DNA from: Octopus sinensis
Lineage: Eukaryota
NCBI RefSeq assembly: GCF_006345805.1
Contig: NC_043011.1
Location: 62,880,464 to 62,944,463, forward strand
DNA length: 64,000 nucleotides
Direction: 5' to 3'
In this document: in pieces, positions 3,001 through 51,000 of the stretch
How the letters are laid out: every line of letters starts with the position of its first letter
How positions within the stretch are numbered: the stretch's first letter is position 1
Program-made: the position numbers

Positions 3001-6000
3001 CTTATCCCCACCCCGGACATGGCTGCCTATGTGGTAAAATTTGAAATCATTATTACTATCATTATTATTATTATTATTATTATTATTATATTATTATTAT
3101 ATTATTATTATTATTATTATTATCATTATTATTATTATCATTAATATCATTATTGTCATTATTATCATTATCATTATTATTATTATTATTATTATTATTA
3201 TTATTATTATTATTATTATTATTATTATCATTATTATCATTATTATTATTATTGTTATCATTATTATCATTATCATCATTATCATTATTATTATTATTAT
3301 TATTATTATCATTATTATCATTATCATTATTATTATGATTATTATTATTATTATTATTATTATTAATATTATTATTATCATTATTATCATTATCGTCATT
3401 ATTATTATTATCATTATTATCATTATTATCATTATCATCATTTTATTATTGTTATTATTATTATTATTATTATTATTATTATTATTACTATTACTATACG
3501 CTTCTCGAAATTGCTGGCCTTGTGCCAAAATTTGAAAGCAGTATTAGTCATGCACAGGTTTTCGAGCTGCCAGAACTTTTAGCACGCCGGACAAAATGCT
3601 TAGCAGCATCTGTTCCAAAATTAATTTCTCAGTTACAATTTCGCCGTGGTCGATTTTGCCCTTCATCCTTTCAGGGTACGACCTCATGACGATGATCGAT
3701 ACAATTAATTTACACGCTTCCTCGAAATTGATTACCCTTGTGCCCAAAAGAGAATTCAATACAATTCAAATGACGATTATGTCAGCTTGAAGTCGTTTAA
3801 CATACACAAATATTTAAACTTTATGTAAGTTCATATTTATAGTATCCTTGCAGTAAATCCGCTCAATTCAGACGTAAAACAATTTTTATTATTGCTACGA
3901 AGTATTTATTTTGTTTTAATATTATCTACTAGTGTAATCAACAGAACGTTATTTACGGTAACCCATTTATAAACTTTACACACAAATTTGTATTTCTCCT
4001 GGAGTTATTTACATTTTTATGTTTGTTTTACACAAATTGAAATCAAATGAGATTTTTTATCTCATTGCACAAGACGTAACAGTAGATTAGTTCCGCTGCC
4101 TTCACTGAAAATGCAAACGAAAAACAAAGCTTTCAAAACGAGAAAAAAGTTATTCAAAAGCACAATTTACTCACAACTATTTTTTTCATATTTGATTTGA
4201 AGATGTTTGTCAATTTTTGTTGTCTGTATGGCAACGTGAATGGGAAACGGTATGATATTCACAAACAATGTTCTAAATAATGTGGGCGTTTATGTATGTA
4301 ATATCTTATCCATATAGACACACAGGCATAGAAACACACACACACACGCACTCACTCACATATATACTCACACACTTGTACCCCCTATATATATATGTAT
4401 GTGTATATATATAATAATAATAATAATATAATAATAATAATAATAATAACGATATATATATATATATATATATATATATATATATATATATATATGTACA
4501 TACATACATATACACATTACATATATACATGCAGACATCAAAACATATATGTATATTATGTGTGTCATACACCATGATTTCAGCAAGGCATTTGACAGAG
4601 TGGACAACAAAAATCCTGCTGAAGAAACTGTCCAAAATTGGAGTCTACGGAAAGCTGCTGCAGTGGATCAAGTGTTTCCTCACGAACAGAACCGAACATG
4701 ATGTGTTTGAGGGAATAGGATCCAGCTCAGCGAAAGTAAGTGGTTGTGTTCCAAAAGGTAAGCGTTTGGGCCGAAACTTCTTCATTATTTACATCAACGA
4801 GATAGTAGATGTCATCAAACATTCTGCATTGAAAATCTTCGCAGATGATTCCAAACCCCGGAAAGCCATATTCGATTGAAGAGACCGAATCTGCCTTCAG
4901 TCAGATCTGTGTGCTATCGTCCAATGGGCGGAAAGAAACAATATGCATTTAAATGAAGATAAGTTTGATTTGATCCACTTTAAGAAAGAGGAAACTCTGA
5001 AATTACCATATGCTCTTCGCTCGGGCGATACCCTAGTGTCAACCAATAATACCAGAATTCTTGGAGAGATTGTTGATAACAATCTAAGCTGGAGGTCCCA
5101 CGTATACAGCAAGGTTTACTTGGCTCGCAAGATGTGCTCCTGGATTCTGAGAACTTTCCGGTCTAGAGATGCCTACATTATTATCCTTCTCTACTTTTGC
5201 CCGGCTTCGCCTTGAGTACTGTTGCCCACTGTGGTTTCTCCATACGAAACGACTCATTATGAAAGTAAAAACATTCCAGAGGTCAATAACATGAAAGATA
5301 GATGGCATGAGATAGCATTGACTCTTGGGGTCGACTAAAAAATAAATACTCGACATCTACTATCTCGAACGCCTCTGGGAGCGCTTCATCATTTGTGTTA
5401 TGTGGGAAATATTCCATCAATGTTGCACAAATGATGTTGGGATCAATTTTAAAACCCATACAAGACTTGGCCCCCGTGCTATCCGCCAACTACAAAAGTC
5501 GACTCGGTACACATAGCAACATTACTTCACAATTACTTTACCTCAACCGACCCAACTCTTTTCAATACCATACCAAAATACGTCCAAACGGAAACGGATC
5601 CCATAAAATTCCAATGTTTACTAGACAAATTTCTTTAAAAAAATCCCGGGCCAACATCCTACACGCGGATATGTCCCCAACAATAATAAAAATGTCTTAG
5701 GGTGGGCTATAGTGCTCCATGTAGGACTAAAGGCTTCACCAGGTGGTGCTACTGAGTTAGACATGGCCCGGGCCTATAATGGGCGAACCTATCAAAGTTA
5801 AAGTTATCATATGTACATACATACATATAGTACATGCATGCATTTATCAAAATATACATATATATGTGATTATATATATATATATATATATATATATATA
5901 TATATGTACTAACAAAAAGGGTTCAGCAAAGATTTGCTTCACCACACACCGAAGTTTAGAAATAGCAGCCAAAAATCTTAGCTATTTCTTCTATTTTAAA

Positions 6001-48000: not shown

Positions 48001-51000
48001 CGTGAGATCTTAGGCAGGCGTTTTCCAACATTTCGTGGAATAAAACCTTTTGCGCAGAAGTCAGTTGACAAGAAGCGATGTGGAACGCCATGCTTGTGTT
48101 TGAGTGAGTCATAATCCGTAATTCGATTTTTACATCCACGTATTTAATGAGGCATATCCATGTATTTAATGGAGTTTACTCTATAGCCAAACCGACCTAT
48201 CTGAGTACTAACTTGTACAGTCTTCCCACTAGAATCGGAGGCTCTGCATAAAAACTTTTAAAACATGGAAAAAGTAGATTCTTATATTCCTTTTGTGACT
48301 GAGCCATACAAACCAACAACAATTAAAAGAGCAGGACTATTATTTCTGGAAGAACAATTAAAATATACGTAAAGTATACTAGCCATCTCAATATAGCTAA
48401 CCACTAAGGGTGGGTGTTACTGTAGCTTTTAGCCCCATGAGATCATCGTCTCCAGCTGGCTTTAGGCTCACTTTCTGTGCCCTTATGGTATTTGCAAAGG
48501 GAGGTAATCCCTCTCTCGTAAACCTAAGTGATACGCACGGACTTCAGTTTCGAGGTATTTGCCTCTTGTCAACGTACGGCAATCACCGGTTTTCGATGAA
48601 GGAAGACCTGTTTGCAAATATTTATTTATTGTTTTTCCCAGTTACTTCCGTCACTGATTTCGAAAAACTGTCTGCAAGCGATAATAAATCTCTGAACGAG
48701 ATGTAAACAGTAACCACTCAACAACGTAAAGTATAATAGCCATCTCATTATGGCTAACCACTAAGGGTGGGTGTTACTGGAGCTTTTAGCCCTAGGAGAT
48801 CATCGTCCCCATGGAAAACCGGTGATTACCGTACGTTGACAAGAGGCAAATATCTCGAAACTGCAGTCCGTGCGTATCACTTAGGTTTAAGAGAGAGGGA
48901 TTACCTCCCTTTGCAAATACCATAAGGCACAGAAAGTGTGCCTAAAGCCAGCTGGAGACGATGATCTCCTGGGGCTAAAAGCTACAGTAACACCCACCCT
49001 TAGTGGTTAGCTATATTGAGATGGCTATTATACTTTACGGTGTCGAGCGGTTACTGTTTACATCTCGTTCAGAGATTTATTATAAATTAAAAAATATTTA
49101 ACAGGCAAAAAATGCAAAATAATTTTAAAATCGCGCAAGTCTGTTTTAATTACAGAAAATTATACCCAGGTATTCGATTTATGATTACAGACCAGCTTAT
49201 GAGAAATTTCATCCTCACACTTTGAAATAGATTTTATTGCTATTTTTATGACATTCTTGCCATTCTTTTTAATATTCATTAAATCCATTTCTGTCCAAGA
49301 ACACAATAACGGTAGAGTGTATCTTCATCGCAGAGGTCACGTCATAGTGGAATCGATTAGTAACGCAGAACTGTGGCATACGTAAAATTACTAATCAATA
49401 TTGATTCATACGAAGTCGGTAGGCTGAGAGAAATTATATGAAGGACTTAAGAATGGTGAATTGGCTGATTCTGTAGAATATCAAGCCAAATGTGATGCGG
49501 CATTTAATGAGCGCTCATAACGCTCTTAGAGAAGATGCGCGGTGAGAACGTTTCAAGATGATAGTTTCGATTCCTGGAGCGGGTTGGGCGTTATGTTCCT
49601 GGGCAAAACATTCATTTTCCCATTGCTGCAGTCCGCTGAGTTGTACATAAGAGACCATGCAGCGGTTTAGGGGCAACTTTGTGATGTCGGTCACTTATAG
49701 GCTATGAGAGCTTGGGTCGGGAATCGCATATGTCCTAGAAGTTACTAACCTCAGGCTCAGATTAAATCCTGCCGGGGCCATCTTTGACGCTCGCCGTTTC
49801 CTCTGTTGATAAAACGAGTTTCTTATTTCTTTACTACCCACAAGGGGCTAAACATGGAGGGGACAAACAAGGACAGACAAACGTATTAAGTCGATTATAT
49901 CGACCCCAGTGGGTAACTGGTACTTGTTTAATCGATCCCGAAAGGATGAAAGGCAAAGTCGACCTCGGCGGAATTTGAACTCAGAACGTAGCGGCAGACG
50001 AAATACCGCTAAGCATTTTGCCCGGCGTGCTAACGTTTCTGCCAGCTCGCCGCCCTTACCAATGACAAATGAGTTCTTCGTGAATACTAGTGTCGATAGA
50101 GATAATTGCCTTTTCCGTCGTCACTTTTAGATTTGCACCTCCATAAGGCATTTTTACGTTATTTCGCCATTCTATGTTCATATTTAATTTTTTGTTTTTC
50201 TCATTCGACCTACATCAACGAAATTAATAGCACAATCATATTAATTGAGCTAAGAGATAAATTAAAATTCAGATATGAGTCAGGTAGAAATCCATTTACA
50301 TATTTCGTACAAACGATCAGTAATTTTGATCTATGTCTCGTGAAAGAACCTCTAAAATGTTGGTTATATCCCGCGTGTGAATATGATGAAACGAGAAAGA
50401 GAAAGAAAGAAAGAGAAAGAGAGAGAGAGAGAGAGTGAGTGAGAGGAAGAGAGCAAATGTGTGTGCGCGTGTGTGTGCACATGCGCATGCGTGCTTGTGC
50501 ATAATTTTGTTGTTACTTTGGTCAAAATTACCTGTTTATAATATCTACTTTGAGCTTATTCAGTAAATTAATGTACCCGTTCCCTAATCCGTTTGTTGGG
50601 AATTATCTGTTTCAACGGATAGTATGTAATAGCTCTGACTATAATAACGTCATACTAGGGTTTAAATTAAGCCCCAAAATAAAAATTGAAACAAAAAGAA
50701 TTGCCTATTACTTAGAAGCATTAATTTCATATCGATCTCATTGCATACTTCTTTACGCAGAAACCATTCCTGGAAAGCAGGTTTATACATGAAGTATTCC
50801 GACCTTGACTATTCTATCTTCATTTCAAGCATCGCACATATCGTACTACATGGTACATTGCGTTCATCTTTTCCAAGATGGGAGGACCTGATTTGAGTTA
50901 TATTTTATTATTTCTGCCTCCGCCTGAGGTTATGTAGATGCCCTTCATTGACTCATTGACTATAGTAGAGAAATGTGCCATTCCATAAAACTTAGGTGCA

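What the first reader, a model, noticed from the sequence alone, without database searches (positions are those of the whole stretch)
5908..49083. A diverse population of hammerhead-bearing, non-coding retrozyme-like elements with a shared diverging-arm architecture
Seen: seven elements of largely different sequence (5908-6703, 24578-24755, 25670-25856, 35377-36522, 38941-39649, 45718-45900, 48368-49083) each carry a type I hammerhead motif, usually with a palindromic helix III, and no ORF. In each, two ribozyme-sense arms read outward from a central junction (about 6510, 24610, 25727, 35488, 39203, 45831, 48810). Five abut or lie between (TA)n tracts. Where a period is measurable it is about 357, 467, 555 or 577 bp, and the arm ends are permuted. 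Established: PLE terminal repeats and metazoan non-LTR retrozymes carry such hammerheads, which can cleave as dimers, and retrozymes form small circular RNAs. Inference: these are non-autonomous, probably circular or multimeric RNA elements mobilised by the co-resident PLE RT/GIY-YIG and integrated by priming on both target strands. I do not recall these families being described in cephalopods, but I cannot check that.
Basis: partly seen in the sequence, partly recalled or inferred. Interest (0 to 1): 0.9.

Follow-up and report, generated by a model that had tools for sequence, protein, structure and literature searches.

The report
Hammerhead-bearing non-coding retroelements beside Penelope copies
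Most of the flagged loci are real insertions of small, non-coding, ribozyme-carrying mobile elements built like insertions of Penelope-type retrotransposons; this is a known kind of element, here in new sequence families.

Summary
Five of 7 loci (E1, E3, E4, E5, E7) are two sense-outward arms meeting head-to-head. Unit periods of 357, 467, about 557 and about 578 bp are confirmed. Eight of 14 ends lie within 3 bp of a (TA)n tract. None codes.

The hammerhead claim holds only in part:
- Complete in E4, E5 and E7. E7 has a U3-A8 core.
- Near-complete in E1 and E3.
- Doubtful in E2 and E6.

I found an eighth hammerhead element at 46046-46619. No Rfam model sees any of them. My Penelope-type descriptor gives 5 hits against 0 in 200 shuffles. 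The related E1 and E4 show 5 compensatory pairs of 12.

Six of 8 measurable arms run through the cleavage site, so the template was multimeric or circular. Three 5'-truncated Penelope-like copies share the window, and at least the two related ones sit in (TA)n. Two carry a U3-A8 hammerhead.

Best reading: retrozyme-type non-autonomous elements with the known Penelope tandem/inverted insertion signature. This is a new member of a known kind. The host, genome-wide copies and all RNA-level steps stay untested.

The parts
5908..6703 (.). E1. The left arm 5908-6510 reads on the minus strand and covers 1.04 units of 579 bp. The right arm 6511-6703 reads on the plus strand. (TA)n lies on both sides.
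6086..6173 (-). E1 hammerhead-like motif. The core is CCGAUGA (U4C), helix I has 5 bp, helix II is 53 nt and weak at its base, and helix III is the palindrome ACGCGCGU. It is probably a decayed copy.
24578..24755 (.). E2. A short palindromic centre lies near 24610. The arms are alike for only about 30 nt. The hammerhead-like motif at 24608-24675 (+) has an aberrant core. Doubtful.
25670..25856 (.). E3. A symmetric palindrome centred at 25727/25728, between (TA)n tracts. A compact hammerhead core, a helix II of U.U plus 3 bp, and GAAAC-AGUACU-GUC occur on both arms (25731-25684 minus, 25724-25773 plus). The 5' strand of helix I is absent.
35377..36522 (.). E4. The left arm 35377-35488 reads on the minus strand. 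The right arm 35485-36522 reads on the plus strand and covers 1.87 units of 555 bp. (TA)n lies on both sides. Its unit is homologous to the E1 unit.
35625..35677 (+). E4 hammerhead, first copy. Canonical CUGAUGA core, helix I of 4 bp, helix II of U.U plus 3 bp, helix III palindrome ACGUACGU, U17.
36180..36232 (+). E4 hammerhead, second copy, in tandem 555 bp downstream and identical in the motif.
38941..39649 (.). E5. The left arm 38941-39209 reads on the minus strand and starts inside hammerhead helix II. The right arm 39203-39649 reads on the plus strand and covers 0.96 unit of 467 bp. (TA)n lies on the left and (CA)n(TA)n on the right.
39430..39528 (+). E5 hammerhead. Canonical core, helix I of 8 bp, helix II closed by 4 bp with a 60-nt insert, helix III palindrome ACUAUGCAUAGU, C17.
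45718..45900 (.). E6. Its minus strand has a CUGAUGA core, a bulged A, a 5-bp helix II and GAAAC (45823-45769). Helices III and I do not form and position 17 is G. The arms share only 20 bp. Doubtful.
46046..46619 (-). It has a complete hammerhead at 46283-46193 (minus): canonical core, helix I of 6 bp, 7 pairs closing helix II, and A17.
48368..49083 (.). E7. The left arm 48368-48811 reads on the minus strand and covers 1.24 units of 357 bp. The right arm 48810-49083 reads on the plus strand. No (TA)n. A candidate target-site duplication AATTAAAA(AA)TAT lies in the two flanks.
48830..48874 (+). E7 hammerhead with the covariant core UUGACAA (U3-A8). Helix I has 6 bp, helix II 4 bp, and helix III is the palindrome ACUGCAGU. 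A second copy at 48580-48532 (minus) has one mismatch in helix III.
41550..43615 (-). Penelope-like copy #1, 5'-truncated in (TA)n. The ORF 42398-43615 reads YLDD and then, about 250 aa later, a Cys-rich GIY..YIG region. A U3-A8 minimal hammerhead lies at 41645-41602 in the 3' region. The 3' end abuts (TA)n.
6812..8085 (-). Penelope-like copy #2, 5'-truncated next to the (TA)n tract at 8086-8117. It is 77% identical in protein to residues 259-385 of copy #1. The same hammerhead lies at 6905-6862 with a helix II mutation. It has the same 3' terminus on (TA)n.
36727..36837 (+). Penelope-like copy #3: a divergent fragment of the YIG half of the endonuclease (46% identity to copy #1), downstream of E4 and its (TA)n tract. 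A hammerhead-like box lies near 37160-37205.

Best explanation
The loci are insertions of small non-coding retroelements. Each unit (357, 467, about 555 or about 579 bp) carries one type I hammerhead of the Penelope kind. That kind has a short palindromic helix III that can pair between two copies, a mismatch or bulge at the base of helix II, and in one family a U3-A8 core. There are at least six sequence families; only E1 and E4 are related.

Proposed mechanism:
1. Shown: each insertion is two sense-outward arms joined head-to-head. The arms are permuted reads of a unit that closes on itself, and most run through the cleavage site.
2. Inferred: the template was an uncleaved multimer or a re-ligated circular RNA.
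3. Shown for 8 of 14 ends: the 3' ends sit in UA-rich patches flush with (TA)n. The related E1 and E4 use the same two patches.
4. Inferred: a nicked (TA)n target primes reverse transcription on both DNA strands. The two cDNAs grow towards each other and are joined at variable 5' truncation points, with 0-7 nt of overlap.
5. Inferred: the enzyme comes from Penelope-like elements. Their truncated, hammerhead-bearing copies lie in the same window, two of them in the same kind of target.

In published terms these are non-LTR retrozymes, or non-autonomous Penelope derivatives, showing the Penelope tandem/inverted insertion signature.
For: HAMMERHEADS BEYOND CHANCE.
- The Penelope-type descriptor (exact or U3-A8 core, palindromic helix III) finds 5 sites against 0 in 200 dinucleotide shuffles.
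- An earlier, looser version finds 4 sites against a mean of 0.01.
- The strict descriptor finds 2 sites against a mean of 0.12. None of 300 shuffles reaches the helix lengths of the 46283-46193 motif.

COVARIATION. The E1 and E4 units align over their full length (54% identity), with the ribozyme at the same place. Five of 12 pairs are changed on both sides and 91.7% of cells are paired. With the partners slid, 20-42% are paired.

ARCHITECTURE. Six of 8 arms cross the cleavage site, and arms cover 1.04-1.87 units.

3' ENDS. E1 arms end at unit positions 186 and 291. E4 arms end at 195 and 286. These are the same two patches in the alignment.

TARGET. TA adjacency is p=0.018 per end, and 8 of 14 ends are within 3 bp. 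E7, which lacks (TA)n, has a candidate 11-13 bp target duplication.

RNA-LIKE PROPERTIES. GC is 0.34-0.42. Circular folds are more stable than shuffles, with z from -3.3 to -5.9 in sense.

CO-RESIDENT PENELOPE COPIES. The nearest Atlas clusters carry HTH_animal, GIY-YIG and RVT_1 (score 0.95). A U3-A8 hammerhead lies in their 3' region.

LITERATURE (passages read).
- Penelope insertions form partial tandems plus an adjacent inverted 5'-truncated copy. A microsatellite insertion bias is reported for the N-terminal-endonuclease clades, with (TA)n as a preferred target of Naiads (PMC8557442).
- Penelope hammerheads include U3-A8 cores, a bulged base 5' of helix II, and pairs of motifs 100-700 bp apart on opposite strands (PMC4209133).
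- Metazoan retrozymes are low-GC tandem units with type I hammerheads that co-exist with Penelope elements (PMC7229834; bioRxiv 10.64898/2026.07.22.740005).
Against: - No Rfam hammerhead model matches any site, even in 181-bp and 716-bp searches at E<=10.
- Two of 7 motifs are doubtful. E1 has U4C at a catalytic position, and E3 lacks helix I.
- No unit resembles the 3' regions of Penelope copies #1 or #3 beyond shuffled scores. I did not test copy #2 separately; its 3' region reads much like that of #1.
- Pfam, NCBIfam and PDB sequence searches do not name the Penelope ORF. Its identity therefore rests on motifs read by eye, one Atlas lead and its hammerhead.
- A LINE-type RT fragment (about 4496-5870) is also bracketed by (TA)n, so the target does not identify the enzyme.
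- E2 and E3 have symmetric junctions: both arms start at the same base. Two independent 5' truncations do not predict that.
- Each family is seen at one locus only, and the tandem runs are short (at most 1.87 units).
Confidence: 0.68

Rival explanations
1. They are remnants of autonomous Penelope-like elements (solo or internally deleted pLTR pieces), not independently propagating non-autonomous families.
For: Penelope hammerheads sit in pLTRs, and most occur as single motifs attributed to truncated elements (PMC4209133). A 2026 preprint derives retrozymes from Penelope terminal sequence (10.64898/2026.07.22.740005). Three truncated Penelope copies lie in the window, two of them next to E1 and E4.
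Against: The units close on themselves at 357-579 bp with no coding sequence. No unit resembles the 3' regions of the two Penelope copies tested. E1 and E4 are diverged yet keep the ribozyme pairing, which suggests selection on a propagating RNA.
Confidence: 0.12
2. They are retroelements, but they are mobilised by a LINE reverse transcriptase with twin priming, not by Penelope enzymes.
For: A LINE-type RT fragment at about 4496-5870 lies between (TA)n tracts. A second LINE-like ORF has zf-RVT. Retrozyme papers leave LINEs open as mobilisers (PMC7229834).
Against: Tandem/inverted structures are reported as not seen in TPRT of non-LTR elements (PMC8557442). The hammerhead type, including U3-A8, is shared with the Penelope copies here.
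Confidence: 0.08
3. They are DNA-level products. Hammerhead-bearing minisatellite repeats were captured or inverted during repair or replication at fragile (TA)n tracts, with no dedicated integration machinery.
For: (TA)n is dense here, with 58 tracts. The E2 and E3 junctions are perfectly symmetric, as fold-back repair would give. A link between satellites and retrozymes is discussed in print.
Against: Four junctions are asymmetric. The related E1 and E4 share recurrent 3' termini. E7 sits outside (TA)n with a candidate target duplication.
Confidence: 0.07
4. They are foldback or MITE-type DNA transposons, and the hammerhead-like boxes are chance.
For: The inverted repeats are prominent, and E3 matches hairpin (miRNA-like) Rfam models below threshold.
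Against: The outer ends of the two arms differ (they are permuted), so there are no terminal inverted repeats. The motifs exceed shuffles and covary.
Confidence: 0.02

Closest known systems
Metazoan non-LTR retrozymes (Cervera and de la Pena 2020, PMC7229834; Li, Clavereau and Pollet 2026 preprint)
   Same: Non-coding units, low GC (0.34-0.42), one type I hammerhead per unit, tandem or permuted copies, folds more stable than shuffles, and co-existence with Penelope elements.
   Different: Two units (555 and 579 bp) are above the published 150-450 bp range. The runs are very short (at most 1.87 units). Every well-resolved locus has an inverted second arm and most sit in (TA)n. The word 'inverted' does not occur in the main text of PMC7229834. 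In the preprint it occurs only in a cited title, and 'microsatellite' only in a remark on satellite birth. The supplements were closed.
Penelope-like element insertions (Craig et al. 2021, PMC8557442)
   Same: Partial tandem, adjacent inverted 5'-truncated copy, microsatellite target and a hammerhead.
   Different: There is no RT/GIY-YIG ORF in the units, and the unit is a few hundred bp instead of 3-4 kb. The (TA)n preference was published for Naiads (N-terminal endonuclease). The copies here have the endonuclease at the C-terminus.
[quoted passage not shown]
   Same: Short palindromic helix III, helix I of 4-6 bp, an unpaired base at the 5' end of helix II, the U3-A8 covariant core, and paired motifs on opposite strands 100-700 bp apart.
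   Different: Helix II carries inserts of 53-60 nt in E1, E5 and the 46283 motif. The passages I read do not mention such inserts.
Rfam RF00163 Hammerhead_1 (235 loci reported in the giant squid genome, PMC6962438)
   Same: Type I topology.
   Different: None of the motifs here reaches even E<=10 with the Rfam models.

Membership tests
Hammerhead ribozyme, type I | Conserved core CUGANGA ... GAAA ... UH in type I order | tested here: met
   Exact in E3, E4 (two copies), E5, E6 and the 46283 motif. U3-A8 covariant in E7 (two copies) and Penelope copies #1 and #2. Not exact in E1 (U4C) or E2 (G8A, or an insertion).
Hammerhead ribozyme, type I | Three helices closing on the core | tested here: inconclusive
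   All three helices form in E4, E5, E7 and the 46283 motif. E1 has a weak helix II, E3 has no helix I, and E2 and E6 fail. E1 against E4 shows 5 compensatory pairs of 12.
Hammerhead ribozyme, type I | Self-cleavage | not testable with these tools
   This needs in vitro transcription of monomer and dimer constructs.
Rfam hammerhead families | A match to a curated covariance model | tested here: not met
   No hammerhead rows (150 of 225 rows seen), 16, 55 or 56.
Non-LTR retrozyme | Non-coding tandem unit of a few hundred bp with one type I hammerhead, and low GC | tested here: met
   Units of 357-579 bp close on themselves. GC is 0.34-0.42. There are no Pfam hits. The tandem runs are short (1.04-1.87 units).
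Non-LTR retrozyme | Expressed as circular RNA | not testable with these tools
   Indirect only: 6 of 8 arms cross the cleavage site.
Penelope-like element (autonomous) | An ORF with RT followed by a GIY-YIG endonuclease | tested here: not met
   Not met for E1-E7. For the ORF 42398-43615 the motifs were read by eye, and the Atlas clusters carry GIY-YIG and RVT_1. Pfam, NCBIfam and PDB searches are silent.
Penelope-like insertion signature | Partial tandem plus an adjacent inverted 5'-truncated copy, with a microsatellite target | tested here: met
   Met in E1, E4, E5 and E7. E3 is symmetric. (TA)n flanks E1-E5.
tRNA-derived SINE | A tRNA-like head | tested here: not met
   ARAGORN finds 0 genes in the window.
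MITE or foldback transposon | Identical terminal inverted repeats at the outer ends | tested here: not met
   The outer ends fall at different unit positions in E1, E4, E5 and E7.

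The most novel reading that the evidence does not exclude
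These loci are fossil integration intermediates. They would show that retrozyme RNAs, as circles or multimers, are inserted by the Penelope machinery through target-primed reverse transcription on both strands of a (TA)n microsatellite. Priming would occur at a few fixed UA-rich patches per family; E1 and E4 share two. That would turn the long-assumed retrozyme-Penelope partnership, and the unexplained Penelope tandem/inverted structures, into something testable with a template a few hundred nucleotides long.
Probability: 0.35. Interest if true: 0.6.

Novelty: new member of a known kind. Interest (0 to 1): 0.42.

Why it matters
Retrozymes are thought to be moved by Penelope-like elements. The published support I read is co-occurrence and pLTR similarity. 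Here, small ribozyme units show the whole Penelope insertion signature, with reads through the cleavage site and recurrent 3' ends. That gives structural evidence for the partnership and a compact substrate for studying the unusual Penelope integration reaction. It also shows that Rfam-based counts miss this class of hammerhead.

Tried and rejected
RFAM. I ran it at gathering threshold, at E<=10 on the whole window, and on three sub-regions. It gave only hairpin or low-complexity miRNA-like rows. I rejected it as a detector for these motifs.

NAMING THE PENELOPE ORF. Pfam, NCBIfam and PDB sequence searches found nothing. AlphaFold2 without an alignment gave mean pLDDT 36.9. The model is unusable, so I ran no fold search.

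LINKING UNITS TO PENELOPE COPIES. I looked for similarity between each unit and the 3' regions of Penelope copies #1 and #3. No score exceeded the shuffles.

SITE NEAR 37160-37205. The CCGAUGA ... GAA-AACCAAUUGGUU-C site first looked like chance. It lies in the 3' region of Penelope fragment #3, so it may be a decayed ribozyme. I left this open.

SINE READING. Rejected: there are 0 tRNA-like genes.

MITE READING. Rejected: the outer ends are permuted.

NOT USED OR NOT AVAILABLE.
- I did not use the genome-contig collection, because it holds only bacteria and archaea.
- No eukaryotic genome, Dfam/Repbase or RNA-seq data were at hand. Host identity, copy numbers and genome-wide end statistics stay unchecked.
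- Supplements were closed. The species lists and figures in the supplements of PMC7229834 and PMC4209133 may bear on whether cephalopod elements are already listed.

LITERATURE SEARCHES FOR PRIOR DESCRIPTION. No listed paper describes retrozyme-like elements in cephalopods. PMC6962438 counts 235 hammerhead_1 loci in the giant squid.

Full report
WHAT IS THERE. I read all seven stretches and compared them with the whole window by blastn.
- Five of the 7 (E1 5908-6703, E3 25670-25856, E4 35377-36522, E5 38941-39649, E7 48368-49083) have inverted self-matches of 79-340 bp. Identity is mostly 92-98%; the longest E1 match (340 bp) is 80%.
- E6 (45718-45900) has only a 20-bp exact inverted match.
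- E2 (24578-24755) has none at E<=1e-3. A lenient alignment gives 47 columns around a palindromic centre.
- Among the 25 longest inverted pairs of the whole window, I1-I7 and I10 all belong to E1, E4, E5 and E7. By their coordinates most of the others overlap the (TA)n tracts; I did not read them.
- No further copy of any element lies elsewhere in the window. Only E1 and E4 resemble each other.

UNITS AND ARMS. Direct repeats give periods of 357 bp (E7), 557 bp (E4) and 576-579 bp (E1). For E5 the two arms together define 467 bp. I mapped each arm on its unit, calling the base after the ribozyme cleavage site position 1:

| Element | Left arm | Right arm |
|---|---|---|
| E1 | 161 to 186 (1.04 units) | 97 to 291 |
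| E4 | 88 to 195 | 371 to 286 (1.87 units) |
| E5 | 426 to 228 | 150 to 129 |
| E7 | 86 to 172 (1.24 units) | 299 to 216 |

- Both arms are always in ribozyme sense and read outward.
- The 5' starts at the junction are scattered.
- The outer ends are permuted.
- Six of 8 arms run through the cleavage site.
- The blastn extents of the two arms overlap at the junction by 7 nt (E5), 4 nt (E4), 2 nt (E7) and 0 nt (E1).
- E3 and E2 differ. Their junctions are symmetric: both arms start at the same base, 5 and 11 nt upstream of the core.

HAMMERHEADS. Rfam finds none. This holds at gathering score, at E<=10 on the whole window (150 of 225 rows visible), and on 4.3-kb, 181-bp and 716-bp sub-regions. 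I therefore used explicit descriptors with dinucleotide-preserving shuffles.
- A strict type I descriptor finds 39430-39528 (+) in E5 and 46283-46193 (-), against a mean of 0.12 per shuffle. None of 300 shuffles reaches helix I >=6 together with helix II >=4.
- A Penelope-type descriptor (exact or U3-A8 core, self-complementary helix III block, H17) finds five sites against none in 200 shuffles. The sites are the two E4 copies, E5, E7 right arm and 41645-41602 (-). A looser version gave 4 sites against a mean of 0.01.
- It shows E1 with a U4C core and a weak helix II, E3 with core, helix II and palindrome but no helix I, E2 with an aberrant core, and E6 with core and helix II only.
- 'GAA + palindrome + H' boxes number 8 in the window against 2.6 +/- 1.8 in shuffles.

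COVARIATION. The E1 and E4 units align end to end (54% identity), with the ribozyme at the same place. On the three-row alignment A1 (two distinct sequences), 5 of 12 pairs differ on both sides while staying paired. These are 3 in helix I, 1 in helix II and 1 in the helix III palindrome. In all, 91.7% of cells are paired, against 20-42% when the partners are slid by 1-3 columns. Eleven of 500 column shuffles reach the observed values. With two sequences this is modest evidence, but it points the right way.

CONTEXT.
- (TA)>=6 tracts number 58 and cover 3.9% of the window. Eight of the 14 element ends lie within 3 bp of one, where the chance for a given side is 0.018 within 15 bp.
- The ends fall in UA-rich patches of the units. 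The related E1 and E4 each have one arm ending in the same patch A (186/195) and the other in patch B (291/286).
- E7 has no (TA)n. Its flanks share AATTAAAA(AA)TAT, a candidate target duplication. My rough estimate of that by chance is about 1%; this is my own arithmetic, not a tool result.
- The units are non-coding. Nine frames of 63-115 aa have no Pfam hit better than E=0.21, and there is no tRNA-like head.
- GC is 0.34-0.42. As circles the units fold more stably than shuffles: z is -5.3, -5.9, -3.3 and -3.4 in sense, and weaker in antisense for E1, E4 and E5.

PENELOPE-LIKE COPIES. The 406-aa frame 42398-43615 (-) reads an RT palm motif (YLDD) and, about 250 residues later, a Cys-rich GIY..YIG region.
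- Pfam, NCBIfam and PDB sequence searches do not name it. An unaligned AlphaFold2 model was useless.
- The nearest ESM Atlas clusters (score 0.95, 188 of 256 features) carry HTH_animal, GIY-YIG and RVT_1. That is a lead, not proof.
- tblastn with this protein finds a second copy at 7612-8074 (-), 77% identical, and a divergent endonuclease fragment at 36727-36837 (+), 46% identical.
- Copies #1 and #2 are 5'-truncated at (TA)n and end at the same 3' terminus on (TA)n. Each has, 50-95 nt from that end, a minimal hammerhead with core UUGAAAA, a 4-bp helix II (mutated in #2) and GAA-ACCGGU-A.
- So the window holds Penelope-type elements with the same ribozyme style as E7. Copies #2 and #3 lie beside E1 and E4.
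- No unit shares sequence with the 3' regions of copies #1 or #3.

COMPARISON WITH WHAT IS KNOWN (passages read, not whole papers).
- Craig et al. 2021 describe Penelope insertions as partial tandems with, often, an inverted 5'-truncated copy at the 5' side. They report a microsatellite insertion bias, with (TA)n as a preferred target of Naiads. They say such structures are not seen in TPRT of non-LTR elements (PMC8557442).
- Cervera and de la Pena 2014 describe Penelope hammerheads with a short palindromic helix III, a bulged base 5' of helix II, a U3-A8 covariant core, and pairs of motifs 100-700 bp apart on opposite strands (PMC4209133).
- Cervera and de la Pena 2020 define metazoan non-LTR retrozymes as low-GC tandem units of 150-450 bp with type I hammerheads. 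They are expressed as circular RNAs and co-exist with Penelope elements. The words octopus, cephalopod and inverted do not occur in the main text (PMC7229834).
- A 2026 preprint argues from co-occurrence and pLTR similarity that retrozymes derive from Penelope elements (10.64898/2026.07.22.740005).
- The giant squid genome paper lists 235 Rfam hammerhead_1 loci without further study (PMC6962438).
- Searches for retrozymes or hammerheads in cephalopods found nothing more. Supplements were closed.

VERDICT. The loci are best read as retrozyme-type, non-autonomous, hammerhead-bearing elements with the Penelope insertion signature. That is a known kind, here in new families. The extra content is anatomical: reads through the cleavage site, recurrent UA-rich 3' ends, and head-to-head arms in (TA)n. 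These fit reverse transcription of a circular or multimeric RNA primed on both strands of the target.

The weak points are these:
- Two doubtful and two defective ribozymes.
- Symmetric junctions in E2 and E3.
- A LINE fragment that also sits between (TA)n tracts.
- No sequence link to the local Penelope copies.
- One locus per family.
- An unidentified host.

All RNA-level and enzymatic steps are inference.

Noticed in passing
All three helices and an exact core are present, and there is no inverted arm.
   Followed up: partly
window 41602-41645 and 6862-6905 (minus strand): The two related Penelope-like copies carry a minimal hammerhead with a U3-A8 core near their shared 3' terminus. The copy at 6862-6905 has a helix II mutation.
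   Followed up: yes
window 37160-37205 (+): A CCGAUGA ... GAA-AACCAAUUGGUU-C box lies in the 3' region of the third Penelope fragment and is followed by a (TTA)n run. It may be a decayed ribozyme or chance.
   Followed up: partly
window 13676-14506 (-): A mariner-type transposase frame (Pfam Transposase_1, E=8.5e-24) with HTH domains.
   Followed up: no
window about 4496-5870 (+) and 28578-29324 (-): LINE-type reverse transcriptase remnants. The first has FADD-type RT motifs and is broken by frameshifts, with (TA)n at both sides. The second has zf-RVT (E=5.1e-08).
   Followed up: partly
whole window: (TA)n is very dense: 58 tracts of at least 6 units, about one per 1.1 kb. Together with (CA)n it produces many sub-threshold miRNA-like Rfam rows. 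Hairpin models also match the E3 palindrome.
   Followed up: partly
window 24541-24578: Thirty-seven bp of unmatched sequence lie between the short left arm of E2 and the (TA)n tract. The length recalls the 30-40 bp 'tail' reported at Penelope insertion ends. I did not test this.
   Followed up: no
window 41990-42160 and 7190-7390 (minus strand): Both related Penelope copies carry a long trinucleotide-repeat stretch of TCT/TCA type in the 3' untranslated region.
   Followed up: no
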